This document shows positions 22,201 through 63,310 of a stretch of DNA of 64,000 bases, in pieces (position 1 is the stretch's first letter; each line of letters opens with the position of its first letter). The notes beneath the pieces are model-generated. The model was not told the DNA's origin. It saw nothing but the letters and a program-made list of their open reading frames with translations, and ran no database searches. The DNA lies in the NCBI GenBank assembly GCA_903904875.1, contig CAIVEC010000001.1, positions 10,147 to 74,146 on the forward strand, written 5' to 3'. The translations under genes were made by a program, and so were the position numbers. The stretch comes from an uncultured bacterium (GTDB lineage: Bacteria > Patescibacteriota > Gracilibacteria > Absconditabacterales > Absconditicoccaceae).

Positions 22201-22371
22201 ATTTCATTGATTTTCTCAATGATTTCCTTAGTACATACGTAGCAAAACAAAAACATAATATACCCTAACATCAAGCCTTATCATCAGGCTATTTTTTGCT
22301 AGGTCCAGTCGATTTTTCCGTCAAATAAAAATAAAAATAATAATAAAAACTAAAAAAGAAAGGTCATTAAA

Positions 22372-23916
22372 ATGAAAAAAAACTTTACTAAATTTTTGTT
22401 CATCGCAGTAGCGGTGATCGGCATGTTTTTTGCCAAATCAAGTCAGGGACAAACAGCTTATGTAAGCTTGGATACACTTAGCAATGGAGATACTATCCAT
22501 TATTGTACTTCACAGTATACCCAGGTAGTCCTTTACAAACCAACGGCAGCATTAACAAATCCTCAATGGGATATTCAACAGCCTTCATATCATAATGTTT
22601 TTGCTGATTCTGTTATCTTAAACACCACAAACGCTGGGACAATCTGGTTTTCGTCTGATCAAACATCAACGATAGAATTAAATTTTTTTCTTGTAGGAGT
22701 ACCAAATTCTCCAGGATTAGCTGATATCAATGCCTGTGGAGATATCTACAGTTACCCGCTTGATGCATTGAATCATAATACCGGGTCTTTTTATACCTGG
22801 TCAACGGGAGCAACAACACAAAACATTACTGCTACAAGTCCCGGGACGTACTGGGTACATATTGATGATGGGTGCGGTACGATATCAGATACTGCTATCA
22901 TTACTGCAGATCATACCAATGACGCTAATCTTGGTCCTGATCAAACGATTTGTCTGTATGATACTATCACGTTGACCAGCGGTAATACCAACATCACTAC
23001 CTATGCATGGTCAACCAGTAGTTCTGCTTCGACTATTACTGTTTCGCAAGCAGGGAGCTATAGTATCACAACAACTGACAATTCTGGTTGTGTAAGTACT
23101 GATACAATGAATCTCATTATTATCGTTCCCTATGATCAGCAGCAAATCTGCATGGTAGAATATGACACTCTTGCGTCCGAGAATCGTATCAATTGGGATC
23201 AGCATCTTGGCGAAAGAATTGACAGTATTAATATCGAAAAACAGATATCACTTACTGAATGGGAAAGTATCGGAGTTGTACCCAATACAATAACTAATTT
23301 TTTGGATACCAATAGTACTCCGCAAACCAATAGCGATTCTTACCGGATTCTTGTAATAGATAGTTGTGGCAACAAATCATCAGCTTCTGATGCTCATAAG
23401 ACCATTACGCTTTTGACGAGCTACACTCCAGGAACTGGGGTTATGGGATTTAATTGGTCTCACTATCTAGTCAATGGCATACTCGTTGCACCGACCTATA
23501 CTATCTATGGTATAGATACCAGTGGAAGTACTCATGTGGTTGGCACGGTTCCGGGAAGCCAGAATTATTATAACTGGACCACCCCCGATTTGAGCTATAT
23601 CAAATTCTTTGTCGGATTTACGCTTAGTTGCGGAGCCAAAACAGATTATCTGGTACGCTCAAACTATACAGGCAACCCTGCAGGAATTGACGAATATTCT
23701 TTGACTGACCAAATTCATGTATATCCGACACTGACCAACGGTCCGATAACTATCATGACCGATCTCTTTATCAAGGATATCAAACTTTATAATACTTTGG
23801 GACAAGTACTCTTGGTCACCAAGGAGAAAAAAATTGATATTCCTTACCATGGACTTTACTTTTTACACATCAACACCGATAAAGGTGTGATGGTAACTAA
23901 AATTATGATCCAATAA
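22372..23916 (+). CDS. secreted repeat protein with Bacteroidota-type T9SS C-terminal sorting domain
   Basis: Signal peptide MKKNFTKFLFIAVAVIGMFFAKSSQG. 3 x Y.WSTGATT..ITV..GTY.V...D..GC..DT repeats. Two Fn3-like ...SCGNKS modules. CTD VYPTLTNGPITI...LYNTLGQVL...GLYFLHINTDKGVMVTKIMIQ. 514 codons with no TGA. Confidence 0.85.
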   Translation: MKKNFTKFLFIAVAVIGMFFAKSSQGQTAYVSLDTLSNGDTIHYCTSQYTQVVLYKPTAALTNPQWDIQQPSYHNVFADSVILNTTNAGTIWFSSDQTSTIELNFFLVGVPNSPGLADINACGDIYSYPLDALNHNTGSFYTWSTGATTQNITATSPGTYWVHIDDGCGTISDTAIITADHTNDANLGPDQTICLYDTITLTSGNTNITTYAWSTSSSASTITVSQAGSYSITTTDNSGCVSTDTMNLIIIVPYDQQQICMVEYDTLASENRINWDQHLGERIDSINIEKQISLTEWESIGVVPNTITNFLDTNSTPQTNSDSYRILVIDSCGNKSSASDAHKTITLLTSYTPGTGVMGFNWSHYLVNGILVAPTYTIYGIDTSGSTHVVGTVPGSQNYYNWTTPDLSYIKFFVGFTLSCGAKTDYLVRSNYTGNPAGIDEYSLTDQIHVYPTLTNGPITIMTDLFIKDIKLYNTLGQVLLVTKEKKIDIPYHGLYFLHINTDKGVMVTKIMIQ

Positions 23917-23936
23917 AATTATTTCATGTAATATAA

Positions 23937-23968
23937 ATCCCGAAGTTTTTCTTCGGGATTTTTTTTAT
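23937..23968 (+). terminator. intrinsic terminator (near-copy at 44645-44675)
   Basis: aatcccgaag-ttttt-cttcgggatt followed by a T-run. Confidence 0.75.
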
Positions 23969-23993: not shown

Positions 23994-25703
23994 CTAAAAA
24001 CAAACGGTAGTATAAAAACTAATAGATCATCAAGCATATATTAAAAATGAGCCATCAATAGGTATTGCTGTATTGGTTGAATCACAGAAACAATACATAT
24101 CAGGGCGAGGGGGATGATTAGCAGCACGAACATAGAACATTGTTCATTCAGGATAACCAGTAGTTCAACATGGATCTCAAGCTTGTCGTCTTATTGCTTT
24201 AATACCACCTTGTACAGTAAGCATAGCATCTGGGTTAGTTATTCCGATACCGACTCATCATGTTAATACCGTCATTATATTACTATAACCAATAGAACCA
24301 CCTCAGTTTCATATTTCAAATAAAGAATTAGATAATCATACATTATGACTTCATATCGCCAATGAATTATCTCAATTAGCGGTTGTATAAGATCCCATTA
24401 CAGTAGACATAGCTCAACTAGCAAGGGATCTATTTCCCATTGCTGTGGAATAATCTCAGTTAGCTTGTGTCTGATGTCCTATTGCTGTAGAAGCATATCA
24501 ACTAGCTATTGTACTATATCCCATCGCTGCAGAATAGGTTCAGTTAGCAGCATTGACACTATTTCACGCTATAAATGTCCCTACAACCTGCAAGTTTGCT
24601 GTTGGACCAGTCGTTCCGATTCCTACATTGCCATTTACATATAAATCTCCCGCACCTGAACCAGTTAAAATATTATATCATATACCGACATTTCATCACA
24701 TTGATACCGTCATTATATTATTTCTATTAGAACTATTAAGTCAATTTCATATTTCAAATACAGAATCAGATAATCATATATTATATTTTCATATCGCTAG
24801 TGAATAATTTCAATTAGCATGTGTTCCTTGTCCCATGGCAGTTGAATAATCTCAACTAGCTATGGTATTAGCTCCCATAGCAGTAGAAGTATTTCAATTA
24901 GCTGTTGTAGTAGCTCCCATAGCAGTTGAATAATCTCAATTAGCTGTTGTACTAGCTCCCATAGCAGTTGAATAATCTCAATTAGCATAAGTTAAATTTC
25001 CCATCGCTGTAGAAGTATTTCAATTAGCTGTTGTACTATGTCCCATAGCAGTCGATCGACTTCAAATAGCTCGTGTTAAATTTCCCATCGCTGTAGAGAC
25101 CACTCAAATAGCATGTGTTCCATATCCCATTGCAGTTGAAATCGTTCAGGTAGCATAAGTTCAATTTCCCATCGCAGTAGAGTAATTTCCACTAGCAGTT
25201 GTTCATTGTCCCATCGCTATAGAATTGGTTCAAATAGCACTATTACTAGTACTTCATGCTATAAATGTTCCTGAAACTTGTAAGTTTGCTGATGGACTAG
25301 CTATTCCGATACCGACTTTACCAGAATTATAGTAAGCGATTCAAGCTCCTCATGTAGACCATATGGATTCACCACCTGCAGTACCTCCTGTAGGCCATGT
25401 AGTTCTACACTTTGTAAGAGATGTATCATCAGAAAGACATATAGTAGAACCGGTTACTGTACCAGAAAAGTATGCGTCTCCATTTGCTCCATTGAAAAAG
25501 ATTCCTGTATCGGAACCAACATCGCCGTCTATAGTCATAAGAACATCTCTTATAACCATTGCAGCATTTTTTTGTGCAGGCACAACCTCAAATGCCTTTG
25601 CCATAAAGAGTATGCAAGACATTCAGAGGAAAAACAGCGTAGCTCATTTGATGAAGCTCATACCGCCTTTCTTTGACTGTAAGTTTTTGCTTGTGAAGCT
25701 CAT
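23994..25703 (-). CDS. surface fibre protein with YadA-head / Hep_Hag-type 14-residue repeats
   Basis: Whole gene translated codon by codon (569 aa, TAG stop). N-terminal signal-anchor MSFIKGATLFFLGMSCILF. Two blocks of STAMG..T.A.G.. repeats, the A.G Gly mostly TGA. NVGIGTTGPTANLQV spacers. Cys-containing C-terminus. Confidence 0.8.
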
Positions 25704-25847: not shown

Positions 25848-26651
25848 TTAATTTACCCGTAACTCTCCTGGACTACCTCATTGTCCGACCTTCCAAACTC
25901 CTCCTGTTAATCATTCAATTACTAAATTATCACCAGAAACAATGATTCTTCGTGGAGTTGTTCATCAGGTAAGATAGAATCCTGAGTTGCTTTGTACTGC
26001 ACCACTAACATCTAACGCATATTCTGGTGAAGTTATTCATCCGATACCGACATTTAATCAAACATTGTAAATATTTGTACTATTGGTGATCCAGGAAGCT
26101 CAATCCCAAAATGGCGTTGCTCACAATCATATTCATGCTTGTAAAAATCCTGTAGCTCCTGTATCTCCTGTCGCTCATGTTGCTCCTGTATCTCCTGTCG
26201 CTCATGTTGTTCACATTGCTCATGTCGCTCACGTTACTCATATTGGTCATATCGCTCACGTTACTCATATTGGTCATATAGCTCATGTTGGTCCACTCAG
26301 TGCAAATCCACTAATGAAGTTGTATACTGCACCACTTGTAGATGCTATTAATTTTCCACTTGCATTAGTTCCAAGCACAGCAAAGTTTAGTAAACTGTCC
26401 ATCGTTACATCGCCTTTGAACCATGCGGTTCCGCTAGCACCGTTTAAAAAAACTCCTGTAGCAGAAGTAGAATTTCCGTCTAGAGTAAGAATAAGATTTC
26501 CTACAAGTATCGTCGCATTCTTTTGTGCAGTTTTAATTTCAAACGCTTTTACCATAAAGAGTATGCAGGACATTCAGAGGAAAAACAGCGTAGCTCATTT
26601 GATGAAGCTCATGCCTTTTCTTGATTGTAAGTTTTTGCTTGTAAAGCTCAT
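25848..26651 (-). CDS. collagen-like (G-X-Y) surface fibre protein
   Basis: Same N-terminal cassette as 23994..25703. About 16 uninterrupted GXY triplets (GAIGPIGVTGAIGPIGVTGATGAMGTTGATGDTG...) at about 26100-26285, about 10 of the Gly encoded by TGA. 804 nt. Confidence 0.8.
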
Positions 26652-30120: not shown

Positions 30121-32688
30121 ATGGATCTCAAAGAGATAAGCAAAAAACGACAGAAAAAACGGAAAGAAACAGATCTCTACAAAGTCAGAGAAGATATTTC
30201 TAAACCAAAATTTTATATTCTGGCTATGTTCCCCTATCCGTCCGGTGCATGATTACATGTAGGACATCCGAAGGGATATATTGCTACCGACACGTTGGCG
30301 AGAAAAAAAATGCTTGAAGGATATAATGTACTTCATCCGATGGGATTCGATACCTTCTGATTATGAACGGAAAATTATGCGATAGAGCATAAGATGAAAC
30401 CACAGGATGTAGCGAAAAAAAATATTGCAACATATATGAAGCAACTTGAAATGTTTGGTACTACCTATGATCGAAGTAGAGCCGTCAATACGGCAGATCC
30501 GAAATATTTCAAGCGGACGCAACGAATATTCTTACAGATGTACAATCATTATTATGATGAAAAGTTGAAAAAAGCGATGCCGATCACTGATCCAAGTAAA
30601 CAAGAACGTTTAGCATATGTAGATTACAAGCCGATAAACCGATGTCCATCATGTATGACCGGATTAGCGAATGAAGATCTCGATGACGGAAAATGCGAAA
30701 GATGCGGAAGTGTCGTTGAACAGAGACCGATGAAGCAACGAGTATTGAGGATTACGAAATATGCCGAAAGATTGTTGGAATGATTGGATGTCTTGAAACG
30801 GGAAGAGTCCATGAAAGATTTGGAAAGGAACTGGATCGGGAAATCAGAATGAACAGATTTCGATATGCAGGTCGATGGAACGGATGAAAAATTCAGCGTG
30901 TATACGACAAGGATAGATACGGTTTTCTGAATGTCATTCGTTGCTATCGCACCAGAGCACCCATTAGTGGATAAGATAACCACGAAAGAATATAAAAAAG
31001 AAGTTGAAAAATACAAAGACGCAGCGAAGCACAAAACCCAGTTGGAAAGGACAGAATTACAGAAAGAGAAGACAGGAGTCTTCTGTGGAGCCTACGCGAT
31101 CAATCCGTTCAATGGCGAAAAAGTGAAAATATTCGTCGCCGATTATGTCTTGGCAAATTACGGAACTGGAGTCGTGATGGCCGTGCCCGCGCATGATGAA
31201 AGGGATTTCGAATTCTATAAAAATTACAATAAGAACTGAATAGATATTATATGTGTAAATCAGAGTGAATATGGTGTTGAACCTAGAAATTGAGTTTCTT
31301 TTAATATTGAATACGAATCATTTAAAAAATATTGTAATCAATTAGATAAGTTACCACCTTTCTTATCTGCCAATTGAGATAATCAAAAATTAGTAAATTC
31401 ATGAAAGTTTGATTGACTAACCTTATCAGAAGCAAGAGAAGAAATGAACAAGCGATTAAAAAAAGAATGAATCTGAGGTAGTAAAGTGAATTATAAGATG
31501 CAGGATCGGGTATTCAGCAGACAGAGATATCGAGGCGAACCATTTCCGATTGTACGGACCGAAGATGGAGAAATTGTCGCACTTGAGGAAAAAGATTTAC
31601 CGGTGGAATTACCTGATGTAGATAATTATCAACCGACGGGAACAGAAGAATGACCGCTCGCAAACATCACCGATTGGGTCAATGTTACGTTGCCCGATGG
31701 TAGGAAAGCAAAACGTGAAACGAATACGATGCCAGGACGGGCAGGCAGTTCGCGATACCGGCTCAGATATATGGATGTGAATAATGAGAAGGCATTAGTA
31801 GGAAAAGATAAGGAAAAATACCGAGGGAATGTCGACGTCTATGTCGGAGGTGCGGAGCACGTTACCAGACATATGATCTACGCGAGATTCTGGCAGAAAT
31901 TTTTGTACGATATCGGTGTGGTTACAAAACAGGAACCGTTCGAAGAATATCATTATGTAGGGCTCATCATGGGAGAAGACGGCAGGAAAATGTCCAAAAG
32001 ACGAAAAAATGTTGTCAGTCCAGATGATATTATTAACGAGTTCTGAACTGATGCCTTGAGGACCTATGAGATGTTCATGGGACCGTTCGATCAGCCGATT
32101 GCATGGAGTACGAACGGACTGAAATGAATCAAAAAATTCTTAGATAAAGTTGTTGCGTTGAAAGACAAAATAGGGAGCAAGGAGCAAGGAGCAGGGAGCA
32201 AAGAACCTGAAACCTGAAACATGGAACCTGCAACCCATATAATAGTAAACCAGACAATAAAAAAAGTTTGAGAAGATATCGATGTATTCAGATTCAATAC
32301 CGGGGTTTCACAGCTCATGATCCTCGTCAATCACCTGACCGAATGTAAAACCATCAATAAGAAAACATTCGAAGATTTGGTTGTCTTGATATCGCCTTTC
32401 GCTCCGCATTTAGCTGAGGAATTACGGGAGTGATTAGGTAATGAATACTCCATATTCACGAAAGCGAAATGGCCGAGTTATGATAAAAAATATCTCGTAG
32501 CTGATACCGTAACCATCGCTGTACAAGTGAACGGCAAGGTGAGAGGAACGATTTCTATCGATAAGAACGCTGAAGAAAGTGAGGTCATGAAGCTCGCGAA
32601 ATCAGATGAAAAAATAAAAACACGGATTACGGGCGAACCGAAAAAAGTGATCTACGTCAAAGGAAAAATTTTAAATGTTGTAATATAG
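30121..32688 (+). CDS. leuS: leucine--tRNA ligase
   Basis: KK(CGA)QKK(CGG)K = [12 protein letters not shown](TGA)LHVGHP, D(CGG)VFSRQRY(CGA)GEP = [20 protein letters not shown]. 2568 nt, TAG stop. Confidence 0.95.
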
Positions 32689-33457: not shown

Positions 33458-33458
33458 T

Positions 33459-33543
33459 GGAAGGTTGGCAGAGTGGTCTAATGCGCACCGTTGGAAACGG
33501 TGTGTGCCGCAAGGTACCGGGGGTTCGAATCCCCCATCTTCCG
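33459..33543 (+). tRNA. tRNA-Ser (anticodon GGA), type II with long variable arm
   Basis: Acceptor GGAAGGT/ATCTTCC plus discriminator G. Anticodon stem CACCG/CGGTG with loop TTGGAAA. Variable arm. T-arm GGGGG-TTCGAAT-CCCCC. No encoded CCA. Confidence 0.9.
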
Positions 33544-33550
33544 AAGGATT

Positions 33551-33632: not shown

Positions 33633-35090
33633 CTACTCATCGAGTTTTTCGATAGCGAATTGGCGTGCCATATACGCTTCCGGACTCTTTTGTGTAAAAA
33701 TATCCAAGGCAAACATATAGGCATCCTTGAGATTCAGGAATGTCGCATTGGGAACAAGTGAAGGCATTCTCAGTGAGCTCCATATATCTTCCGGATGAGT
33801 CTCTGCTGAATTACAATACGACAACACCGGCCATGCTGTTCTGGCGGAAAGTGTTGGTCCGAGGCCGTTGATCATGCCGACTATGGCAATGATCACTGCG
33901 CCTTCCGGATACTTTGCATGCAATTCATTGAGTTTTTTGGCAGCTTTCAAAGGCATTTTGTGTCCTGAAATCACCACATCTTCAATGATTATGCTTGCAG
34001 GAATAGCTTTGAGGAATTCTTCATCTGCGAAACATTCAAGCTTATCATCAGGAGATCCTCTCCATAAGATGATCGGCTGTTTCGGGATGTAAAATTGGTT
34101 AACAAGCTGTGCTACGCGCATATAATTTTCCTGCACCTGAGCTAATGGATGACCATCACGGAAAGTCTGTTTTGATAATTCTTTCCAGTCGGCTGTCCTT
34201 AGTCTCCAGGAGTCATTGTCGATGACGTCAGCAACAACCAAGTTTCCAGCGGTATCGATTCCGAATTCGATTTTAAAATCGATTAAGCGGTAGCCCAATG
34301 TATTCCATGCTCCTTCCAACACCAGGAAAGTTTTGCGGGTGATTTCTTCGATTTTTACGAGCATATCAGGATTGGTAATAGTACTGCCGTCCATTGTTGT
34401 CAATGGAGTGATTTCCCAGGTCGGTTTCTTTGGATGTCGTAAAGTCCACTTTGAAATATCTTTCGGATTTTCGATCCAGGGATCATCAATGATTTTAATT
34501 GCCTCTTCAACAAGGTCTTCGATGGAAAGTTCCATGAGTTTTGTAATTTCCGGAAGCTTTTTTCCCACCAGTTTCTCGTTGATCTCTTTTAAAGATTTTT
34601 TAACATTCAGATATTTAATCAATTCTTCCTTATCCTTGGGAAGATAATCACGGAGATCCATGTCTCCTAATTTTCCTCCTTTGGTTTTCAGAAAGAGTTC
34701 AAATACCAGCTTATGGAAGCGATCTGGATTTCCTGGTTTGGCTAAATGAGGCATTCTTTCAAGGTATGATCCCGTAGCAAATCGACGGATAATTACTTCT
34801 AAGGGTATCATAGTACAATTTTTTGCCAAAATTTCTGTATCAGACAACTGTTCGATATACGCCGTACGGATACCTGCCTGTTCCAGCAATTCGAATATTC
34901 TGCTGGTTGTCTGAGTTGCACAAATGGCTTTTTTCTCCAGAGAACGGGTTTTTGAGGCATCATTGTCTGCCGTAGTTTCATTAGTGCTTTCCATGATAAC
35001 TAGATCATGGCGCTGGGCAACTGCCCAGATCTTTTTTGTTTTCCCTGATGTTAAGGGATTTTTGCCAAATTTCTTGAATTTTTTCTGCAT
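33633..35090 (-). CDS. bifunctional SAICAR synthetase / class II AIR carboxylase (PurC-PurE fusion, PAICS-like)
   Basis: 485-aa intact ORF. IPLEVIIRRFATGSY, DFKIEFG, ADVIDNDSWRL (PurC part). ISGHKMP, GMINGLGPTLS, IWSSLRMPS (PurE part). No TGA. Confidence 0.85.
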   Translation of the reverse strand: MQKKFKKFGKNPLTSGKTKKIWAVAQRHDLVIMESTNETTADNDASKTRSLEKKAICATQTTSRIFELLEQAGIRTAYIEQLSDTEILAKNCTMIPLEVIIRRFATGSYLERMPHLAKPGNPDRFHKLVFELFLKTKGGKLGDMDLRDYLPKDKEELIKYLNVKKSLKEINEKLVGKKLPEITKLMELSIEDLVEEAIKIIDDPWIENPKDISKWTLRHPKKPTWEITPLTTMDGSTITNPDMLVKIEEITRKTFLVLEGAWNTLGYRLIDFKIEFGIDTAGNLVVADVIDNDSWRLRTADWKELSKQTFRDGHPLAQVQENYMRVAQLVNQFYIPKQPIILWRGSPDDKLECFADEEFLKAIPASIIIEDVVISGHKMPLKAAKKLNELHAKYPEGAVIIAIVGMINGLGPTLSARTAWPVLSYCNSAETHPEDIWSSLRMPSLVPNATFLNLKDAYMFALDIFTQKSPEAYMARQFAIEKLDE

Positions 35091-35314
35091 AAGTTTTCTT
35101 TTTTTTTAATGATTATTAACGACTTTTTTTAATTTCACCAAGTATAGAAAAATGGCGGCTCTCGGCCTTTCGAATTTTTTATTTTCATATGTATATTGGT
35201 TTTAGTGATTTTTTTGTTTACAATGTTTGGATAATCTATCTATATACCATCAAATGTCAAGTCATCTAATTTTTACATAAAGAAAAACGTATCCTGAAAG
35301 GCAGAACACGTTTA

Positions 35315-36100
35315 TCAATGATTTCTCAGATCTAGTTTGATACCAAGATGAAGTGAGATCTTTTGGGTTTCGAAATTAAATTCCGGTCCGCAGATAAAGG
35401 TAAATCCATGATAGAAATCTTTGGAAGATCCAACTGAAATATGATCGTACCCATGTTTATTCACTTCCACTTCAGCACAGATACCTGCTTGCTGGAGATG
35501 ATATTCTTGGCGATAATAGTATTTCAACCAGGTATTTCCGATAGGTTTTACCTTAAAATACGTATCAATCAGCCAAGAAGGCGTAATTAATCCAAAGAAC
35601 ATAAAGGAACCCTTGCGATACTTGATCGTATGATCGCCTCTTGCGCTTTGAGGAAGGTGAAGATAACTTATATACATTTCTCCATTCAGATACCTGTATA
35701 CTTCTTCCAACGGATATTGTTGAGCATATGGATCCGCTTCCACGATCAATGCAAATCCCATACGAAGCTTGTTCCAATATCAGAACGTATTCGCTGCTTT
35801 TTTATCAAATGGAGCAGCCATAAGATCAAAATCTATACCATAGATCCTGGCACCGATCATAGAATTACGCTTGTACAATGAATGAAAATTGTATACCGTT
35901 TTTTCCAGATTTGTACGATCGTAGCACTTCCGCCAGTAGATTGTTTGATCAATTGTGGACTGATCCAAGAAACTTGGATTATTGAAATTCTGATCCATAG
36001 AGACAACCGAACCTTCTACGAGCGTAGAAGACCGTACCAATATTTGCGCATTACTTTGTAATGCAGCAAACATCACAAGTAATATCACAAATTTTTTCAT
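35315..36100 (-). CDS. secreted hypothetical protein, possibly beta-barrel (Bacteroidota-like signal peptide)
   Basis: Two ORF-track pieces joined by one TGA at 35780. MKKFVILLVMFAALQSNAQ. Alternating aromatic/hydrophilic pattern. 786 nt. Confidence 0.55.
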
Positions 36101-39871: not shown

Positions 39872-42754
39872 ATGAAGAAAAAATTAGCTTCTTGGAAATC
39901 AGGTTGAAAATATCTTGTGGTATTTTTGTTGGGAGTGCTTTTCACTTTTGCAATCACCAATGGATTCACACTGATCCACTCTACAGTAGAAAACGCTATC
40001 CAGTTTATCAGGCAGACGAAGTTCACTGATTCCGGTTTGGATACAGGTACCGTATTCGTGGATATCAATGCAGGATCCGGATATATCAACATCAATACCT
40101 GATCGCTCGGTAATTGAACATGATGGAATTCAAGGTTTTTGGCATTGGATGCTTTGGGAAATATAACCTATGCAGCAGAACAAGATCCGATTTTTTCATC
40201 AAGTCCTGTAAGCGGAATCACACTCACCAATATAAATACTTGGAACGCAGCATATAATCGGGTACAGACCAATTCATGAGACGCATTATATTTTATCAAC
40301 AATTCATGAGATTGGGTTAATATGAGTATGACTGGCAATTGGAATAGTGGATACAATCGAATAATTACTTCATGAGATATTTTACGAGATCGATATACCA
40401 TGAGTGGATTTTCCTCACTCAGTTGTTCTACAGGAGAAATTATAAAATACAATGGGTCTACTTGGATATGTAGTAGTGATTTGGTAGGATGAAGTGGATG
40501 AAGCAACTATTACACTACCGGACTCTATTTTGATAGCGGAACTAATCTACTGACCCTCTATGTCAGCGGTTATGGACCTGTCACAGGATATATCATTTTC
40601 TCCGGTATGGATAACTGGAATAGTGCGTATAATCGAATTAATAATTCAGGAACCTTTTTACGAAGCTGGTATACTACCACAGGAATTTATATAAATACTT
40701 TAGCGACTACAACCGGGCTTAATTGTTCAACATGAGAAATCGCAAAATACAATGGGTCTACTTGGGTATGTAGTAGTGATTTAATAGGAAGTTGAGGTGG
40801 ATGAAGCAACTTTTACACTACCGGACTAGATTTTGATAGCGGAACTAATCTACTGACTCTCTATGTCAGCGGCTATGGACCTGTCACAGGATTCATCCTT
40901 TTCTCCGGTATGGATAACTGGAATAGCGCATACAATCGAATTAATAATTCAGGAACCTTTTTACGGAACCGATATACTAATTCATGAACCTTTTTACGAA
41001 ACTGGTATACCACTACAGGTATATACATCAATACGTTAGCAACAACTACTGGTCTTACTTGTTCTGCATGAGAACTTATAAAATACAATGGATCTGCTTG
41101 GGTATGTAGCGGGGATTTGGTAGGAAGTTGAGGAATTAGTTATTGGACTGCAATAGGAGACTGAACATATACATGAATACAATATCTCGGATGAGATATC
41201 GTCACTACATGATTTATTACCAAATGAATATGAGTGAGTGCTCTATGAATATATGCTACAGCGATGGGATATCAAGCAACTGCTAATTGATCTTATTCTA
41301 TCGCTATGGGATATCAGACAACTGCTAATTGATCTTATTCTACAGCTATGGGAAATACTACACAAGCTAATTGAGATTATTCTACAGCGATGGGATGGTG
41401 AACAATTGCTAGTGGAAATTATTCTACAGCGATGGGATATAATACAAAAGCTTATATAATGGGTGCTACATCTTTATGATGGAATACAACGGCTAGTTGA
41501 AGCTTTTCTACTTCAATGGGACAAAATACACAAGCAATATGACCAAGTTCTACCGCTATGGGACAAGGTTCAATGGCTATTTGAGATTCATCTACGGCGA
41601 TGGGATATCAGACACAAGCTAATTGAGATTATTCTACAGTGATGGGAAGGGACACAATTGCTAGTTGACAATATTCTACTGCGATGGGACGTCAGACAAT
41701 TGCTAATGGACTAAATTCTACGGCGATTGGATTGTGTACACATGCTAATTGAATTGATTCTACAGCAATGGGAAATATAACTACAGCAAACTGAGATGCT
41801 GCTACAGCAATGGGAACTCAGACAATTGCTAATGGACTAAATTCTACAGCAATGGGTGCAACGACACATGCTAATTGAACTGATTCTACGGCGATGGGAA
41901 ACAATACAATTGCTAGTGGATATATTTCTACTGCGATGGGAAGTTGGACAATTGCTAATTGAAATTCATCTACAGCGATGGGATCTTATACACAAGCCAT
42001 TTGAGATTATTCTACTGCTATGGGAGATGAAACAACTGCTAATGGAATTGGTTCTATTGCTATGGGATATCAAACAACCGCTGATGGAACTGGGTCTTTT
42101 GCTATTGGAAATGGAACAACCGCTAATTGAAATGGTTCTATTGCAATGTGATATTATACACATGCTAATTGAGATAGTTCTACTGCCATGGGCGATCATA
42201 CAATTGCTAATGGATATGCCTGTACGGTAATGGGGGCTTCAAATGAAATAACGACATGATCAGATTATTCCAGCATATTAGGATGACAATGAAATAAAAT
42301 ATATTGAGTATTAAATGCTTTTATCGGTGGAGGATGAAGTAATATCATAAGTTGAAGTTCCTCAATGTATTCAGTTATTCCTTGATGATCATTTAATCTT
42401 ATAGAAAATGCACAACATAGTTTTGCTTGAGGGAAAAATGCACAAGCATTGCATGATTATACTTTTGTACGAAATGGAGTTGGAGGTAGTACGGTGTTTC
42501 AATCAGAGCATTCAAATAGTTTTATTATTAATGCACCTGGAGGAGTAGGTATCGGAACTAATAATCCACAAGGAGATCTTCATGTTGCAGGAAGCGGGGT
42601 CGTGGTTTTTGAGCCACAAGACACTAATCCTCAATGAGTATGAACAGGATGTACCGTCACGTGATCAGTAGTATATGCTAAGACATCCAATAATCTTTGT
42701 TATTGTAACTGATCATGACGAACAAAATTAGTTGGACTTAATTGCGCATTCTAA
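39872..42754 (+). CDS. 960-aa surface fibre: tandem ~100-aa repeats, Hep_Hag/YadA-head repeats and beta-helix-like tail
   Basis: Checked line by line. Signal-anchor N-terminus. 2.5 x ~300-nt tandem units (40495-41130). About 25 STAMG..T.ANG.. repeats with TGA at the ANG Gly. Ends LCYCNGSG(CGA)TKLVGLNCAF. Confidence 0.85.
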
Positions 42755-43098: not shown

Positions 43099-44640
43099 AT
43101 GAAAACGCAGAAATTTTTCTTTTTTTTGTTGGTTTTCAGCATAAGCTGGATATCAACTAGAGCAACTATTCATCATGTCTATCTGGATAATACCTATAAT
43201 ACAGAATGGCATACGTTTTGCGGGGGAGTGAATGATACTGTCATCCTTCACAAACCAATAATTGCCATGAACAATATTACTTGGGTTACTCCGTTAGGTC
43301 TAATGATTTTTGCTCAGGACACCGTGATTGTGCCGTACAATAATCAAGGGGATTGGTATTTCAGTTCCACCGAAGTAGGAAAGGATGTTTATGTGTATTT
43401 CATTTCTACTCCGCCAGTTCAGCCGGCTTGCATGGCTCATGATACGAGCTTTTGTACAGCAAGTATCAATTGGACCTTGAATGCACAAAACACCAGTACA
43501 TTTTCTACCTATCTCTGGGACAATGGTGCAACTACTAAAAACAGAATAGTCACTACGGTCGGCACCTATTGGGTACAAATCACTAATGCCTGTGGTCAGA
43601 GAACTGATACGCTTCACATCACTCAGTCCAACCCTAATGCTCCTCATCTTGGAGCTGATCAGAGTTTTTGCTGGGGAAGTGGTACGATTCTCAATCCAGG
43701 AAGTACTAATGTAACTTCGTATCAATGGTCAACTGGTGCTATAACACCAACAATCACCGTAGATACGACTGGTACGTACTGGGTATATGTAATTGATGGC
43801 AATGGCTGCAGCGGCAGAGACACGATTCAAGTCACCACTTTGATTCCTATCGGTGAAGAAGAATGTTATGTAGGATTTGATACGCTCACATGGAAAAATG
43901 ATGTTAATTGGACGGTAAATTTACCCGGTAATGCTGACTCCGTACGGATCTACAAAGAGACTTCACTGAATGTGTGGACGCTTATCGGAACTGTTTCCAA
44001 GACCGTTGATCATTTCCTGGATATGGCATCTCTACCACAACAACAGAGCTATAGTTACAAAATAGCTCTAGTGGATACTTGCGGTAATGAGTCTAATCTC
44101 TCATCATTCCATACTACAATCTCACTATTGAGTGCTTACGACCAACCCAGTAACACGTATGGGTTTACATGGTCTGCATATGATGGGATTATAGTAAATG
44201 ATTATTATCTGTATGGTATCTATGGTAACGGAACTGTTACCCAAGTGGGCAGTGTACCTGGTAATCAGTTTATGTTCAATTACCTTAATCCTGATCCTGG
44301 CTTTGTAAAATATTTCGTGGGTTTTGAAACTCCGGATTGTGATGCAAAGACCAATATTGTGGTAAAAAGCAATTGGGTACTGAGAGATTCTCTACTTACC
44401 AGTGTTCATGAAGTGGGAATCATTCCGTTCGCTGTTTATCCTAATCCAGCCAGCTCACAATTGACGATCAATATCGGAGTTGAAGACTTCCAAGTGAATG
44501 TGCTTACCACGATCGGACAGGTAGTCTTGTCTGAACACAATGTGAAAACATTGGACGTAAGTAGTTTATCCAAAGGTCTGTACATTATGCAGGTAACTGC
44601 TAACGGTACAACCAGCGAAAAAAAGATTATTATCAATTAA
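43099..44640 (+). CDS. secreted repeat protein with T9SS C-terminal sorting domain (paralog of 22372..23916)
   Basis: Signal peptide and the same architecture as the paralog. CTD VYPNPASSQLTINI...GLYIMQVTANGTTSEKKIIIN. 513 codons with no TGA. Confidence 0.85.
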   Translation: MKTQKFFFFLLVFSISWISTRATIHHVYLDNTYNTEWHTFCGGVNDTVILHKPIIAMNNITWVTPLGLMIFAQDTVIVPYNNQGDWYFSSTEVGKDVYVYFISTPPVQPACMAHDTSFCTASINWTLNAQNTSTFSTYLWDNGATTKNRIVTTVGTYWVQITNACGQRTDTLHITQSNPNAPHLGADQSFCWGSGTILNPGSTNVTSYQWSTGAITPTITVDTTGTYWVYVIDGNGCSGRDTIQVTTLIPIGEEECYVGFDTLTWKNDVNWTVNLPGNADSVRIYKETSLNVWTLIGTVSKTVDHFLDMASLPQQQSYSYKIALVDTCGNESNLSSFHTTISLLSAYDQPSNTYGFTWSAYDGIIVNDYYLYGIYGNGTVTQVGSVPGNQFMFNYLNPDPGFVKYFVGFETPDCDAKTNIVVKSNWVLRDSLLTSVHEVGIIPFAVYPNPASSQLTINIGVEDFQVNVLTTIGQVVLSEHNVKTLDVSSLSKGLYIMQVTANGTTSEKKIIIN

Positions 44641-52768: not shown

Positions 52769-53413
52769 CTAATCGATTTTTCTTGCGACAAAACCCATCC
52801 ATGTTTTATTATACGGATCGGCAAAGATTCTTTTATTGATGATTTCAAATCCATGATTCTCGAGTGTCTCCTGAAGTTCTTGTTCAGTCCGATGTTTTCT
52901 GAATCTAATCATTCTTTTATTATAATCATGTTTCGTCTCTAGCCCTTCCCTGGACACCTCCGCTTTTGTAGTGCTCAAGAAGATAAGACCATTTGGTTTC
53001 AATATCTTTTTCACTTTTTTGAATACTTCCTGAATCTTGTCTTTGGGGAAGAGATGGATGAATGCACTCATATACACCGAATCAAATGTCTCTTGGAATT
53101 CATGCTGCAAAAAATCCGCCTCAATGATATCTGACATAGGGTTTCTTGTTTTCGCATACGTTGTCATTTCATGAGAAAGCTCAACACCAGTACACAAAAA
53201 CCCCTTATCATTGAAACACTTAACGGCTATCCCGACAGCGCAACCTATGTCCAAAACACTGTTTCCAGGCTGTAAGTATGTTGCGCAAATCTCTATAGCT
53301 TCTACCGTCATCGGGATTAAACTTCCGACACGAGACTCATACTCATCAGCAAGCGTATCATATGCTTGTTTGTGAATACTATCATCAGATTTATGTTTGA
53401 GGTTTCTTTTCAT
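52769..53413 (-). CDS. class I SAM-dependent methyltransferase
   Basis: VLDIGCAVGI motif I. 214 codons with no TGA. Confidence 0.8.
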   Translation of the reverse strand: MKRNLKHKSDDSIHKQAYDTLADEYESRVGSLIPMTVEAIEICATYLQPGNSVLDIGCAVGIAVKCFNDKGFLCTGVELSHEMTTYAKTRNPMSDIIEADFLQHEFQETFDSVYMSAFIHLFPKDKIQEVFKKVKKILKPNGLIFLSTTKAEVSREGLETKHDYNKRMIRFRKHRTEQELQETLENHGFEIINKRIFADPYNKTWMGFVARKID

Positions 53414-54787: not shown

Positions 54788-56200
54788 ATGTTTCAAAATA
54801 AAAAATCTAAAATAAAAAAAGATATGATACAAACCAAAACATTTATTCGCGCTACGGGAAAGTATATTCCTGAGCGTGTCGTGCCAAACTCGGATTTTGA
54901 AGATCCAGAGAAATATGAATTCTTCATATCCAATGACAAAAAAGAAGAACGCTCCAATCTTGAAATTGCCGACAAACTTGCAGAAATCACGGGTATCAAA
55001 GAACGACGATATTTTGATGAGCATACGACAACTTCAGATGCAGGCTATCGTGCCGCAAAAAACGCTTATGATGCTTCCAGAGATGATCCACAAAAAACCG
55101 ATGTCTTCATTTTCGCTCATAATTTCGGTGACATCCGTTATGAAGAGGATAAGTTTGATTGTGTGCCCTGCCATGCAGCAAGAATCAAGAATAATCTCGG
55201 TGTAGAAAACCCTTATACGGTTGCTTATGATATCGCTATCAGCGGTGCTTGTTTGATAAGGGATCTCACGAAACTAAAGGAGTATCTTGCTTTGGGGCCT
55301 AATGATCTTGTCGTAGAAACTGAGAATTATGAGCTCACTGGTATCTATGAAAAAGCTCAGCGTGCTTTTTCTCTTCTTGACGTGCAAAAGGAAAGCTTAC
55401 ATCGGATTATTGTGATTCATATTATTTATGAAAAATTATGTCTTGCAGCCAAAGTAAAAAGAAGGCTGGAAACAGCTAATCCCGATGCGCTTGCTTTTGA
55501 TGTGCTTTTCGGCTGTCCTGGGTGGCTCCATAGTGTAAGCATTGCTGACGCATTCATCACCTCAGAGAAAGCAAAAAAAATCATGGTTATCGGTGCTGAA
55601 GCATTATCACGAGTATCTGATTATTCAGATCCGGATAGCCAGATCTATTCTGATGGAGGAGGCGCCATCTATCTTGAGGGACGAAAAGTAGACGTTTCTG
55701 AGACCCTGGATGATAGTTTTTTCATCTTTGCATCTGTGGGTGCCGGTATGAATCGTAATGTCATGGTGTACTCCAAAAAGTATGGCATCTTAGGTTATCT
55801 TGTATGTTCAGATACCACATCGAAGTATCTCAATCTGCTCTGGATGGATAGATCGTATAATTCTAAGATCGCTGGCTTATATCTCAAAATAAAGGGATCA
55901 ACTGTCTTTGGATATGCAAAAGGGAAAGTTCCTGAGCTTATCAAACAGCTGATGGACAAGCTTGGAATAAACATCAATCAAGTAATCCGCATGTATCTTC
56001 ACCAGGCTAATGAGACATTGGATATAGCAATGACAAAGGGCGTCTTCGAACTTTGTTGTGGCAGAAAAGACTATTCCACTGATCCTCCTACCCCTAGCTA
56101 CATCATTCCTGATGGGCTCGTTCCTATGACCATTCAAAAGTATGGCAATAATTCCGTTGCTACACTACCTATACTGTTGGATGAGTTTGGATTGCAGTAA
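54788..56200 (+). CDS. FabH-like beta-ketoacyl synthase III family protein with ~90-aa internal insertion
   Basis: ITGIKE(CGA CGA)YFDE, AFDVLFGCPGW active-site Cys, IGAEALS(CGA)VSD, HQAN, GNNSVATLP. 470 codons with no TGA. True start may be ATG 54824. Confidence 0.8.
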   Translation: MFQNKKSKIKKDMIQTKTFIRATGKYIPERVVPNSDFEDPEKYEFFISNDKKEERSNLEIADKLAEITGIKERRYFDEHTTTSDAGYRAAKNAYDASRDDPQKTDVFIFAHNFGDIRYEEDKFDCVPCHAARIKNNLGVENPYTVAYDIAISGACLIRDLTKLKEYLALGPNDLVVETENYELTGIYEKAQRAFSLLDVQKESLHRIIVIHIIYEKLCLAAKVKRRLETANPDALAFDVLFGCPGWLHSVSIADAFITSEKAKKIMVIGAEALSRVSDYSDPDSQIYSDGGGAIYLEGRKVDVSETLDDSFFIFASVGAGMNRNVMVYSKKYGILGYLVCSDTTSKYLNLLWMDRSYNSKIAGLYLKIKGSTVFGYAKGKVPELIKQLMDKLGININQVIRMYLHQANETLDIAMTKGVFELCCGRKDYSTDPPTPSYIIPDGLVPMTIQKYGNNSVATLPILLDEFGLQ

Positions 56201-62561: not shown

Positions 62562-62692
62562 AGTTTTTTTTCTCCTTTTCGTTTTGGATTAATATATTTG
62601 TTTTAAAACTTATATACATATTTAATTTAAAAAGTCAATCAAAAAAACCTGAGACTCAAAGCGAACTCAGGTTAGAAAATATATCAATTATT

Positions 62693-63277
62693 TTAGTATT
62701 TCTCAGACTTCACAACATAATAATTTGATTCGTGATCGCATGACGGGCATTTTTCCGGTGGAGTTTTCCCTTTGTGGACGTATCCGCATTTGGTGCACAT
62801 CCGCTCGATGTCTTCGGATTTTTTCGCTAAGGTGCCTGCAGCCAATTGGTCGCGTAATGCTTGGTATCTCGCTTCGTGATGCTCTTCCGCGTGGGAAATT
62901 GCTCTGATTCTGGCAGCGATTTCCGGGAATCATTCCTCTTCGGCGATCTTGGCGAATTCAGGATACAACACTTCGTGTTCGTGATTCTCTCCGTTGATGG
63001 CGTATTGGAGATTGTCCAAGGTCGTTCATTTCTTGACGAAAGCTGGGGTTTCTATTACCACTTCGTCCATATCCTCTCCCATCTTCTCTTTGACCATCTG
63101 GATCATTTTGAAAAATCGTGATGCGTGCTCTTTTTCCTGTTCAGCGGTCAGTTCAAAGATATCGGCTATCTGCAATAATCATTCTTTTCTGGCTGCGCTG
63201 GCATAGATAGCATAACGATTCCTCGCTTGTGACTCGCCGATAAAGGCTTTGGTAAGGGCTTCTAGGGTCTTTTTCAT
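62693..63277 (-). CDS. rubrerythrin
   Basis: FIGESQARNRY, EQEKEHA, INGENHEHEVLYP, AEEHHE, and a rubredoxin end (CGG 62801-62803)MCTKCGY...CPSC where the family has W.C..CGY. 585 nt. Confidence 0.9.
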
Positions 63278-63310
63278 GATGTAGAATTTTAAAAGATAAA
63301 GATATGCTGA

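What the first reader, a model, noticed from the sequence alone, without database searches (positions are those of the whole stretch)
22372..23916. Bacteroidota-style T9SS cargo protein (signal peptide plus Por C-terminal sorting domain) in a CPR-type genome
The C-terminal ~70 aa (VYPTLTNGPITI...LYNTLGQVL...GLYFLHINTDKGVMVTKIMIQ) matches the type-A T9SS sorting domain. The body has Y.WSTGATT..ITV..G.Y.V...D..GC..DT repeats, typical of Bacteroidota secreted and gliding proteins. T9SS is known only from the FCB group and needs an outer membrane, and I am not aware of one in SR1/Gracilibacteria. The gene has no TGA. Its single CGG (S-Y-CGG-I-L-V, about 23341-23343) aligns with Lys in the paralog, so it looks like Arg. 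It sits between recoded genes: the polyprenyl synthase and the TGA-rich fibre genes.
Basis: partly seen in the sequence, partly recalled or inferred. Interest (0 to 1): 0.75.

Follow-up and report, generated by a model that had tools for sequence, protein, structure and literature searches.

The report
SR1 surface protein avoiding recoded codons
A bacterium that reads the genetic code differently (candidate division SR1) carries a conserved, cassette-swapping family of secreted adhesin-like proteins whose tail is a genuine Bacteroidota type IX secretion sorting domain, and every family gene avoids the organism's own reassigned codons for an unknown reason.

Summary
ORF 22372-23916(+) encodes a 514-aa protein with a signal peptide, an N-terminal beta domain, two Ig-like repeats, an FN3-like region and a C-terminal domain. 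That domain is a T9SS type A sorting domain by profile (TIGR04183 above cutoff; paralog 52 bits on Pfam), by match to solved CTDs, and by predicted fold (TM 0.84 to a CTD bound in the Flavobacterium translocon). The genome reads TGA as Gly and CGA/CGG as Trp.

It is not a chimera or a recent import. The same slot (polyprenyl synthase, this gene, fibre genes, FtsK) recurs in at least six independent SR1 assemblies. A close relative (flanks 91-98% nt identical) keeps the signal peptide and CTD but carries a body only 24% identical, so the body is swapped as a cassette.

The bigger finding: 16 non-redundant family genes (582 Gly codons) have no in-frame TGA, and never use CGA/CGG for conserved Trp. 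Synonymous sites are saturated, and the genes lack high-expression codon hallmarks. This points to sustained selection for standard-code compatibility. The cause is unresolved, and whether any T9SS exists in SR1 could not be tested.

The parts
22274..22290 (+). Terminator-like hairpin with a T-run that closes the upstream polyprenyl synthase gene. The target gene is therefore its own transcription unit.
22298..22371 (+). Very A-rich 5' leader. The last 50 nt are 70% A, the most A-rich leader of the window genes tested. All 16 family genes have this feature (54-76% A).
   Evidence: The window mean is 36% A (sd 11%).
22372..23916 (+). Family gene W1: a 514-aa secreted multi-domain beta protein with a T9SS-type CTD. 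It has 0 TGA, 9 TGG and 1 CGG.
22372..22449 (+). Sec signal peptide, residues 1-26. The predicted cleavage site is SQG|Q, which leaves Gln27 at position +1. Gln27 is invariant in the 10 closest members.
   Evidence: Model helix 6-19 with low pLDDT over residues 1-25; alignments. The cleavage site is inferred; no predictor was run.
22454..23703 (+). Variable cassette, that is the mature body. Against the close relative L006, nucleotide similarity is lost here while the flanks are 91-98% identical. Body protein identity is 24%.
22717..23136 (+). Two Ig-like repeats (residues 116-255) carrying the Y.WSTG...GC..DT motif. This region is shared with Bacteroidota Ig_7/CHU_C/PKD surface proteins.
23344..23346 (+). 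The only CGG codon (residue 325). It lies in an R/K alignment column. It reads as Arg in the standard code and as Trp in this organism's code.
23704..23913 (+). T9SS type A C-terminal sorting domain homolog (residues 445-514), a small all-beta Ig-like domain.
23935..23961 (+). Strong terminator-like hairpin (11-bp stem plus a T-run) between the convergent family gene and the fibre gene.
23994..25703 (-). Convergent partner gene encoding a YadA-head-repeat fibre protein. It is TGA-rich (41 TGA against 53 GGN) and has the conserved N-terminus MSFTSKNLQ...
   Evidence: The same family-gene/fibre pairing occurs in L006 and L016, and twice in L019.
25848..26651 (-). Second fibre gene, with collagen triple-helix repeats. 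It has 23 TGA against 27 GGN.
43099..44640 (+). Paralog W2: 513 aa, 35% identical to W1, with 0 TGA among 36 Gly codons, 15 TGG and a strong Por_Secre_tail hit. It lies just downstream of a 960-aa TGA-rich YadA-like repeat gene (39872-42754). A sigma-70-type promoter (TTGACT, 17 nt, TATACT) lies 75 nt upstream.

Best explanation
**What it is.** W1 is one member of a native, multi-copy family of secreted, adhesin-like surface proteins of SR1 (Absconditabacteria). The family descends from a Bacteroidota T9SS cargo protein.

**Shown.**
- The protein has a Sec-type signal peptide, an N-terminal beta domain, two Ig-like repeats, an FN3-like region, a short linker, and a C-terminal domain homologous in sequence and fold to T9SS type A sorting domains.
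- The gene is chromosomal and occupies a conserved slot next to fibre genes in several SR1 genomes.
- In the one close-relative comparison (window against L006), the signal peptide and CTD are kept while the body differs almost completely.
- All family genes avoid both of the organism's reassigned codon classes.

**Inferred mechanism.**
- The protein is exported through Sec.
- The variable Ig/FN3 body mediates contact with a host or prey cell, and is diversified by recombination at the conserved ends.
- The conserved CTD no longer signals to a T9SS, because SR1 is thought to have no outer membrane. It probably serves as a conserved docking module, either to the cell's own envelope or to the neighbouring fibre proteins.
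- The absence of reassigned codons is maintained by selection. The likeliest reason is that the gene must be translated independently of the tRNAs that read TGA as Gly and CGA/CGG as Trp, either for accuracy or because it is expressed at a stage when those tRNAs are limiting. This would resemble codon-gated expression of the bldA/TTA type.

**Confidence.** The figure given is for the whole package. The identity and native status of the family are near-certain. The role of the CTD and the cause of the codon avoidance are much less so.
For: **Domain identity.** TIGR04183 is above its cutoff. The paralog scores 52.4 bits on PF18962, and 16 of 24 members hit TIGR04183. The CTD profile matches solved T9SS CTDs: 8glk_D at 1.5e-9, the mirolase CTD at 1.5e-6 and the RgpB CTD at 1.8e-5. 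The CTD model has pLDDT 94.3, and its top Foldseek hits are T9SS substrate CTDs, led by 8glk_D (TM 0.84, rmsd 1.9 A). The full model has pLDDT 85.8 and is all-beta; the best matches are Ig/FN3 chains, led by fragments of the Aureispira GhpA grappling hook.

**Native SR1 gene.** TGA reads as Gly. CGA/CGG read as Trp, with 14 of 19 such codons in LeuRS on Trp positions, as published for Absconditabacteria (PMC8629427). A homolog lies in an NCBI SR1 MAG beside rpoC, L27 and L32. The same slot recurs in the window, L005, L006, L014, L016 and L019. The identical protein was recorded on 8 contigs, from at least 4 different samples.

**Cassette.** Neighbour proteins are 89-98% identical between the window and L006, but the family protein is only 40% identical. 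Nucleotide identity is 94% through the signal peptide, lost across the body, and 77% over the CTD. At protein level the signal peptide is 24/27 identical, the body 102/417 and the CTD 50/70.

**Codon avoidance.** There are 0 in-frame TGA among 582 Gly codons in 16 non-redundant genes, although GGA is the commonest Gly codon and out-of-frame TGA occurs 7-19 times per frame. All 77 Trp at conserved columns are TGG. Four-fold sites are saturated, at 0.345 observed against 0.30 expected. Neighbour genes show frequent TGA/GGN turnover. Members found by scans that do not depend on gene calls are also TGA-free.

**Distinct expression signals.** Leaders are 54-76% A, GGAG is present in 6 of 16 family genes against 3 of 51 native genes, and sigma-70-type promoters occur upstream of several members.
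Against: - No direct evidence exists for localisation, for partners, or for any role in host contact.
- The function assigned to the CTD in a cell without an outer membrane is a guess. The absence of a T9SS in SR1 rests on literature about Patescibacteria in general (PMC12102498) and was not tested on these genomes.
- The tRNA-independence idea has no direct support. Presumed highly expressed genes only halve their TGA use (15%). The family genes lack the other codon hallmarks of that set. TGA-rich fibre genes sit next door.
- About a quarter to a third of the family's rare CGA/CGG codons fall in Arg/Lys columns. This looks more like genes written in the standard code than like genes optimised for SR1 translation.
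Confidence: 0.5

Rival explanations
1. **Repeated import from an unsampled standard-code donor pool**, for example Bacteroidota or standard-code relatives of SR1. On this view each SR1 copy is young in its present genome. TGA never arose because the family has evolved mostly where TGA is a stop codon.
For: - The genes look as if written in the standard code: no TGA, Trp only as TGG, CGR partly on Arg/Lys columns, and CGT/CGC making up 36% of non-CGR Arg codons, as in other TGA-free genes of these genomes.
- The CTD, the Ig repeats and the +1 Gln signal peptide are Bacteroidota traits.
- The window does hold other genes written in the standard code, namely PurC-PurE and the FabH-like gene. PurC-PurE carries CGA on an invariant Arg.
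Against: - A search of 5.8 billion proteins found no standard-code relative closer than 27% over the full length.
- All 16 members with context lie in TGA-recoded DNA.
- None was found in phage records or viral contigs, and the only plasmid hit was a partial 32% match to a Chondrinema T9SS protein.
- Recombination break points lie inside the SR1-specific signal peptide and CTD, so the donors must be the same SR1 family.
- The slot is conserved across SR1 lineages whose LeuRS is only 78% identical.
Confidence: 0.12
2. **Ordinary translational selection.** On this view the family encodes one of the most abundant proteins of the cell (like an S-layer protein), and the reassigned codons are read slowly, so they are purged.
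For: - Presumed highly expressed genes use TGA at 15% against about 29% genome-wide, and L27 and L32 have 0 of 18.
- Family genes have strong-looking promoters, A-rich leaders and, more often than native genes, a Shine-Dalgarno.
Against: - Zero of 582 requires much stronger selection than is seen in DnaK (8 of 44) or RpoC (5 of 47).
- Family genes do not share the other biases of the highly expressed set. Their C-ending pyrimidine codons are fewer, not more, and their Arg CGY share is 36% against 6%.
- Only two ribosomal protein genes were available, so the upper end of the expression range is poorly sampled.
Confidence: 0.15
3. **The CTD is a mimic ligand.** On this view SR1 displays a T9SS substrate domain on its surface to latch onto the T9SS translocon or PorV shuttle exposed on a Bacteroidota host. 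That would explain why the CTD is conserved while the body varies.
For: - The CTD model superposes at TM 0.84 on a substrate CTD captured in the Flavobacterium translocon complex.
- The CTD is the conserved end of the cassette.
- A published coverage correlation gives moderate support for an Absconditabacteria-Bacteroidetes association (PMC8406219).
Against: - No binding data exist.
- It does not explain the codon avoidance.
- Known SR1 hosts are Gammaproteobacteria (Vampirococcus, as cited in PMC8406219).
- A C-terminal position is more typical of an anchor than of a distal tip.
Confidence: 0.1
4. **Assembly chimera or mis-binned Bacteroidota DNA** inside an SR1 contig.
For: The gene is free of TGA and has Bacteroidota-type domains, which is what first raised the suspicion.
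Against: - The same gene order occurs in at least six independent assemblies from different sources.
- The identical protein was recorded on 8 contigs, from at least 4 samples.
- Nucleotide identity to a relative runs unbroken from the SR1 flanks into the signal peptide and the CTD.
- There is a second copy 20 kb away in the same window.
Confidence: 0.01

Closest known systems
Bacteroidota T9SS type A cargo proteins (for example RgpB, mirolase, and the NucA and RemA CTDs; TIGR04183 / PF18962)
   Same: They share an N-terminal Sec signal peptide, Ig-like repeats in the body, and an extreme C-terminal CTD of about 70 aa. The CTD keeps the P-x-P, G-x-Y and terminal K-x-I-I motifs and the same fold. 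Gln follows the predicted cleavage site, as in the Bacteroidetes Q-rule (PMC5837995).
   Different: This family is encoded in a doubly recoded SR1 genome of a phylum proposed to lack an outer membrane (PMC12102498). No T9SS component was seen in the DNA examined. The family has no full-length Bacteroidota relative above 27% identity.
GhpA grappling-hook protein of the Bacteroidota Aureispira (PDB 9flp, 9flw, 9fly)
   Same: It is the best structural match to the full model: a chain of Ig-like beta domains. From memory, it is a T9SS-secreted protein used for contact with prey.
   Different: GhpA is roughly ten times longer. Identity is only 12-14% and the global TM-score is low (about 0.2). The resemblance is a beads-on-a-string architecture, not demonstrated orthology.
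Variable surface-antigen loci with conserved ends (from memory: streptococcal emm alleles, neisserial pilE/pilS-type cassettes)
   Same: A conserved export signal and a conserved C-terminal module bracket a body that differs almost completely between close relatives in the same chromosomal slot.
   Different: No silent cassette archive, invertase or retroelement was seen nearby. The donors appear to be paralogs or alleles in other SR1 genomes.
Codon-gated gene classes (from memory: TTA/bldA in Streptomyces; standard-code-compatible early genes of stop-codon-recoded phages)
   Same: A defined set of genes completely lacks codons whose reading depends on a dedicated tRNA, while neighbouring genes use them heavily.
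   Different: Here the avoided codons are the organism's own reassigned codons (TGA as Gly, CGR as Trp). Nothing is known about regulation of the corresponding tRNAs, and the genome is cellular, not viral.

Membership tests
T9SS type A C-terminal sorting domain (TIGR04183 / PF18962) | A significant match to the curated profile at the extreme C-terminus | tested here: met
   TIGR04183 scores 26.1 bits against a cutoff of 23, over residues 460-514 of 514. Pfam scores 22.6, below its 27 cutoff, for this member, but 52.4 bits for the paralog. Of 24 members, 16 hit TIGR04183 and 12 hit Pfam.
T9SS type A C-terminal sorting domain (TIGR04183 / PF18962) | A compact Ig-like beta-sandwich fold like the solved CTDs (3+4 strands; PMC11285876) | tested here: met
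   The CTD-only model has pLDDT 94.3, with six strands of three or more residues plus short bridges by DSSP. The four top Foldseek hits are T9SS CTDs: 8glk_D (TM 0.84, rmsd 1.9 A), 8gl6_D, 8gl8_D and 8qb1_A. The RgpB CTD scores TM 0.71-0.73. This is a prediction, not an experimental structure.
T9SS type A C-terminal sorting domain (TIGR04183 / PF18962) | Sequence homology to experimentally characterised CTDs | tested here: met
   The family CTD profile against PDB sequences gives 8glk_D at 1.5e-9, the mirolase CTD at 1.5e-6, 8glj_D at 4.5e-6 and the RgpB CTD at 1.8e-5.
Functional T9SS cargo | An N-terminal Sec signal peptide | tested here: inconclusive
   There is a hydrophobic helix at residues 6-19, a positively charged N-terminus and an SQG|Q site, and the first structured strand starts at residue 27. 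No signal-peptide predictor was available.
Functional T9SS cargo | The same genome encodes the T9SS machinery (SprA/Sov, PorV, PorU, GldK/L/M/N) and has an outer membrane | not testable with these tools
   Only 64 kb of this genome and about 200 kb of related loci were available. The precomputed Pfam labels and my Pfam scans, which cover only part of the genes, show no T9SS component. The literature proposes that Patescibacteria have no outer membrane (PMC12102498). No paper in the held library links T9SS with SR1 or Gracilibacteria.
Absconditabacteria (SR1) genome | UGA decoded as glycine | tested here: met
   ORFs of at least 100 aa sum to 137 kb across the six frames with TGA as sense, against 49 kb under code 11. 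TGA sits at invariant Gly positions of DnaK, TyrRS and LeuRS motifs (the motifs are from memory).
Absconditabacteria (SR1) genome | CGA/CGG decoded as tryptophan (Shulgina and Eddy 2021, PMC8629427) | tested here: met
   Of 19 CGA/CGG codons in LeuRS, 14 align with Trp of T. thermophilus LeuRS.
Absconditabacteria (SR1) genome | Orthologs and synteny in genomes deposited as SR1 | tested here: met
   A 54%-identical homolog lies in 'candidate division SR1 bacterium' GCA_026397395.1. The syntenic locus in the NCBI MAG GCA_019248075.1 (L005) is also TGA-recoded, though its taxon label was not shown.
Cassette-type variable surface protein locus | Near-identical flanks and conserved gene ends, with an unrelated-looking body in close relatives | tested here: met

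The most novel reading that the evidence does not exclude
The family may belong to a set of genes that an SR1 epibiont keeps written in the standard genetic code because they act in, or are expressed by, a standard-code host cell. The other TGA-free genes that use CGA for conserved Arg (PurC-PurE and the FabH-like gene) may belong to the same set.

This would be the bacterial counterpart of Agrobacterium T-DNA or of phage auxiliary metabolic genes. After delivery (for example through the conjugation-type T4SS of Patescibacteria), the host would make the protein, export it with its own Sec and T9SS machinery, and display it as a docking site for the parasite.

- **Fits:** the T9SS sorting domain in an organism with no apparent T9SS, the Bacteroidetes-type +1 Gln signal peptide, the A-rich leader, the strict standard-code compatibility, and the reported SR1-Bacteroidetes co-variation.
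- **Against:** the sigma-70-type promoters, the Shine-Dalgarno sequences in some members, and the absence of any precedent.
Probability: 0.04. Interest if true: 0.97.

Novelty: new variant of a known kind. Interest (0 to 1): 0.78.

Why it matters
- **Secretion and cell envelope.** T9SS sorting domains are treated as a hallmark of Bacteroidota and their relatives, and of a diderm envelope. A conserved, selected CTD family in SR1 means one of three things. The domain has a second function independent of T9SS, or it targets a host's T9SS, or SR1 envelopes are not what we think.
- **Genetic code.** The family is a natural experiment on code change. A chromosomal gene family has stayed compatible with the ancestral code through saturating divergence, inside genomes that use TGA for about 30% of their Gly codons and CGA/CGG for more than half of their Trp codons. 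Explaining this would show whether reassigned codons carry a hidden cost or a regulatory role, or whether parasite genes are tailored to another cell's translation system.
- **Host range.** The variable body next to fibre genes is a concrete candidate for the host-recognition apparatus of a lineage whose hosts are mostly unknown.

Tried and rejected
- **Chimera or mis-binning.** Rejected on synteny in at least six assemblies and on nucleotide identity that runs unbroken into the gene ends.
- **Recent one-off HGT.** Rejected, because the family is multi-copy and present across SR1 lineages, and synonymous sites between members are saturated.
- **Ascertainment bias from code-11 gene callers.** Addressed in three ways. 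Some members were called under code 25 in NCBI records. Others came from tblastn-type scans (L010-L013). No high-identity fragments appear in the hit list.
- **Motif avoidance at the DNA level.** Rejected, because out-of-frame TGA is common.
- **General codon-usage foreignness.** The test was uninformative: z = -0.7 and -1.1, with the suspected imports also in the native range.
- **Phage, plasmid or viral reservoir.** Nothing was found in phage records or viral contigs, and the plasmid search gave only a partial 32% hit to a Chondrinema T9SS protein.
- **Bacteroidota -7 promoter motif TAnnTTTG.** Absent from the 200 nt upstream of all 13 genes tested.
- **TGA-free as a marker of Bacteroidota import.** This did not hold for PurC-PurE, whose named relatives are mostly Patescibacteria.
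- **Scans that underperformed.** The first alignment was too divergent for the locus scan. The genome and metagenome scans returned only 2 and 3 loci because the peptide patterns were narrow. The Campbell 2013 SR1 paper is not held in the library.
Full report
**1. The observation**

The ORF lies at 22372-23916 on the + strand: 514 aa, ATG start, TAA stop. NCBIfam TIGR04183 (T9SS type A sorting domain) matches residues 460-514 at 26.1 bits, above its curated cutoff of 23. Pfam PF18962 matches residues 450-513 at 22.6 bits, just under its cutoff of 27.

They are the part of the protein that matches Bacteroidota proteins carrying Ig_7, CHU_C, PKD and Por_Secre_tail domains.

The gene has no in-frame TGA.

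**2. The genome**

ORFs of at least 100 aa sum to 49 kb under code 11 and to 137 kb when TGA is a sense codon. TGA sits at invariant Gly positions of DnaK, TyrRS and LeuRS motifs (the motifs are from my own knowledge).

Of the 19 CGA/CGG codons in LeuRS, 14 align with Trp in T. thermophilus LeuRS. This is the double reassignment (UGA to Gly, CGA/CGG to Trp) predicted for Absconditabacteria by Shulgina and Eddy (PMC8629427).

In the window, TGA makes up about 29% of Gly codons, and CGA+CGG outnumber TGG.

**3. The C-terminal domain is a genuine T9SS-type CTD**

- The paralog at 43099-44640 scores 52.4 bits on PF18962.
- Of 24 full-length family members, 16 hit TIGR04183 (best 3e-15) and 12 hit PF18962.
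- A profile of the family's last ~70 residues finds solved T9SS CTDs in the PDB: 8glk_D (1.5e-9), the mirolase CTD (1.5e-6), 8glj_D (4.5e-6) and the RgpB CTD (1.8e-5). The alignment keeps the P-x-P, G-x-Y and terminal K-x-I-I motifs.
- An AlphaFold model of the CTD alone has pLDDT 94.3. Its four best Foldseek matches are T9SS CTDs. The top one is a substrate CTD bound in the Flavobacterium translocon (8glk_D, TM 0.84, rmsd 1.9 A). The RgpB CTD scores TM 0.71-0.73.

The full-length model (pLDDT 85.8) is an all-beta chain of domains. Its best matches are generic Ig/FN3 chains, led by fragments of the Aureispira GhpA grappling hook.

The predicted signal-peptide cleavage (SQG|Q) leaves Gln27 at +1. 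Gln27 is invariant in the ten closest members. This matches the Q-rule described as Bacteroidetes-specific (PMC5837995). The cleavage site is inferred and was not predicted with a tool.

**4. It is a native, conserved SR1 family, not a chimera or a one-off import**

A search of 5.8 billion proteins found about 24 full-length relatives at 28-63% identity. One is annotated as candidate division SR1. The only full-length relative labelled Bacteroidetes is 27% identical.

The SR1 MAG copy lies beside rpoC, L27, L32 and nusB.

The window's arrangement is ArgRS, RF-1-domain gene, RRM gene, 23S-IVP gene, polyprenyl synthase, family gene, fibre genes, FtsK, sigma-70, LeuRS. It recurs, in full or in part, in L005, L006, L014, L016 and L019.

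The identical protein was recorded on 8 contigs, from at least 4 samples. All 16 members for which I hold DNA lie in TGA-recoded contexts.

A local HMM of the CTD finds it only in family genes, across the window and all fetched SR1 loci.

**5. The body is a swappable cassette**

Between the window and L006 the neighbours are 89-98% identical at the protein level: FtsK 96, ArgRS 95, polyprenyl synthase 97, sigma-70 98 and LeuRS 89. The family protein in the same slot is 40% identical.

At the nucleotide level the two loci are 91-98% identical through the flanks, the intergenic region and the first ~27 codons (94%). Similarity disappears from about 22454 to 23703 and returns at 77% over the CTD. 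At the protein level the signal peptide is 24/27 identical, the body 102/417 and the CTD 50/70.

Two near-identical strains (L010 and L015, flanks 99.5-99.96% identical) differ in the family gene by 17 non-synonymous and 10 synonymous codon changes.

Family genes are regularly paired with convergent fibre genes (YadA-head, collagen-like or Peptidase_S74 types). In L019 the family-gene/fibre module occurs twice in tandem.

W1 is its own transcription unit, bracketed by terminator-like hairpins at 22274-22290 and 23935-23961.

**6. The family avoids both reassigned codon classes**

This is the main new finding.

- **TGA.** Sixteen non-redundant family genes contain 582 Gly codons and no in-frame TGA. 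In the surrounding genes TGA makes up 24-42% of Gly codons (higher in one short contig), and per-gene P values range from 1e-4 to 1e-12 where enough context is held.
- **Frame-specific.** Each gene has 7-19 TGA trinucleotides in each of the other two frames. GGA, one substitution from TGA, is the commonest Gly codon.
- **Trp.** At the six conserved Trp columns, all 77 Trp codons are TGG. In native LeuRS most CGA/CGG codons encode Trp.
- **CGA/CGG.** The family's 14 CGA/CGG codons never fall on conserved Trp. Four fall in clear Arg/Lys columns, including the one in W1, and about four fall in mostly hydrophobic columns.
- **Not youth.** Conserved four-fold sites between family members share the same codon at a median of 0.345, against 0.30 expected at saturation. 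In the neighbouring LeuRS, 14 of 48 conserved Gly columns are mixed TGA/GGN across three genomes.
- **Not a gene-calling artefact.** Members annotated under code 25 and members found by translated DNA scans are equally TGA-free.

**7. Possible causes**

*Translational selection.* It exists in these genomes. Thirteen presumed highly expressed genes use TGA for 15% of Gly codons, and L27 and L32 have none in 18. But the family genes lack the other biases of that set. Their C-ending pyrimidine codons are rarer, not commoner. CGT/CGC make up 36% of their non-CGR Arg codons, against 6% in the highly expressed set. The very TGA-rich fibre genes lie next door.

*A foreign reservoir.* None was found in the protein database or in phage or viral collections, and the plasmid search gave only a partial 32% hit. 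The recombination break points lie inside SR1-specific gene ends.

*Expression signals.* Family genes differ from native genes. Their leaders are 54-76% A, against a window mean of 36%. GGAG occurs in 6 of 16 family genes and in 3 of 51 native genes. Sigma-70-type promoters (TTGACT, about 17 nt, TATAAT-like) lie upstream of several members. No Bacteroidota-type TAnnTTTG motif is present.

*My reading.* I conclude that selection keeps these genes compatible with the standard code, or equivalently independent of the tRNAs that carry out the reassignments. The reason is unknown. My preferred explanation, held with modest confidence, is stage-specific or accuracy-driven independence from those tRNAs.

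The boldest reading the data allow is that the genes are written for a standard-code host cell. I rate this at a few percent, because the promoters look like ordinary sigma-70 promoters.

**8. What could not be tested**

Whether SR1 genomes encode any T9SS or outer-membrane machinery could not be tested. [quoted passage not shown]

SR1 hosts are largely unknown. One study reports moderate co-variation of Absconditabacteria with Bacteroidetes in mats (PMC8406219).

**9. Verdict**

The inference of T9SS cargo function is unproven.

The gene is a member of a conserved, cassette-swapping SR1 surface-protein family of Bacteroidota ancestry. Its systematic avoidance of the organism's own reassigned codons is robust, apparently undescribed and unexplained.

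Noticed in passing
window 33633-35090 (-), next to tRNA-Ser(GGA) at 33458-33544: A PurC-PurE fusion gene has no TGA among 21 Gly codons and 10 TGG. It uses CGA at an invariant Arg of the IIRRF/Y motif and at an R/K column. Under this organism's own code those Arg would be read as Trp. Its named relatives are mostly Patescibacteria, and a 92% ortholog sits on a 134,325-bp contig, the same length as L006's.
   Followed up: partly
window 54788-56200 (+) and 52769-53413 (-): A FabH-like (ACP_syn_III) gene (0 TGA among 29 Gly codons) and a methyltransferase gene (0 among 10) also lack TGA. The FabH-like gene has CGA at GIKE-R-R and ALS-R, which are conserved Arg positions of KAS III enzymes as far as I recall. 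This was not checked by alignment.
   Followed up: partly
L002 2946-3830 and 3884-4585 (SR1 MAG GCA_026397395.1): The OMP decarboxylase and phosphoribosyltransferase genes are TGA-free (0 of 29 and 0 of 17 Gly codons) in an otherwise recoded locus. Together with PurC-PurE, this suggests that nucleotide-biosynthesis genes form a class written in the standard code in SR1 genomes.
   Followed up: no
window 23994-25703, 25848-26651 and 39872-42754; L019 5654-7015 and 9167-10651: The fibre genes (YadA-head and collagen-like repeats) use TGA for 36-46% of their Gly codons. Most share the conserved N-terminus MSFTSKNLQ...FLGMSC, which looks like a membrane anchor. The exception is the 960-aa gene at 39872-42754, which has a different N-terminus and was not scanned against Pfam. 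They alternate with the TGA-free family genes.
   Followed up: partly
window-wide upstream regions: Native genes have T-rich leaders and almost never carry a Shine-Dalgarno (3 of 51 have GGAG/GAGG/AGGA at -20 to -4). This suggests an unusual or leaderless mode of translation initiation in this SR1 lineage.
   Followed up: no
window LeuRS 30121-32688, codon 628: One CGA codon in LeuRS aligns with Lys in the KMSKS-loop region of T. thermophilus LeuRS rather than with Trp. Four others align with F, Y, H and H. CGA/CGG decoding may therefore not be uniform, or these sites may tolerate Trp.
   Followed up: no
window 35312-36100 (-): A 262-aa protein of unknown function has a signal peptide ending SNA|Q, giving +1 Gln as in the Bacteroidetes Q-rule. 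It has no Pfam match and uses native coding (2 TGA, and CGG at apparent Trp sites).
   Followed up: no
window 62688-63353 (-): This ORF has 12 CGA and 8 CGC codons in 221 codons, far above the window average. It may be a mis-called frame or another foreign gene.
   Followed up: no
L010 (CAYRIQ010000003.1): The contig is deposited as 'uncultured Candidatus Peribacteria bacterium', but its genes use TGA for about 34-42% of Gly codons (depending on the ORF set), and it is 99.5-99.96% identical to L015. The taxonomic label is probably wrong.
   Followed up: partly
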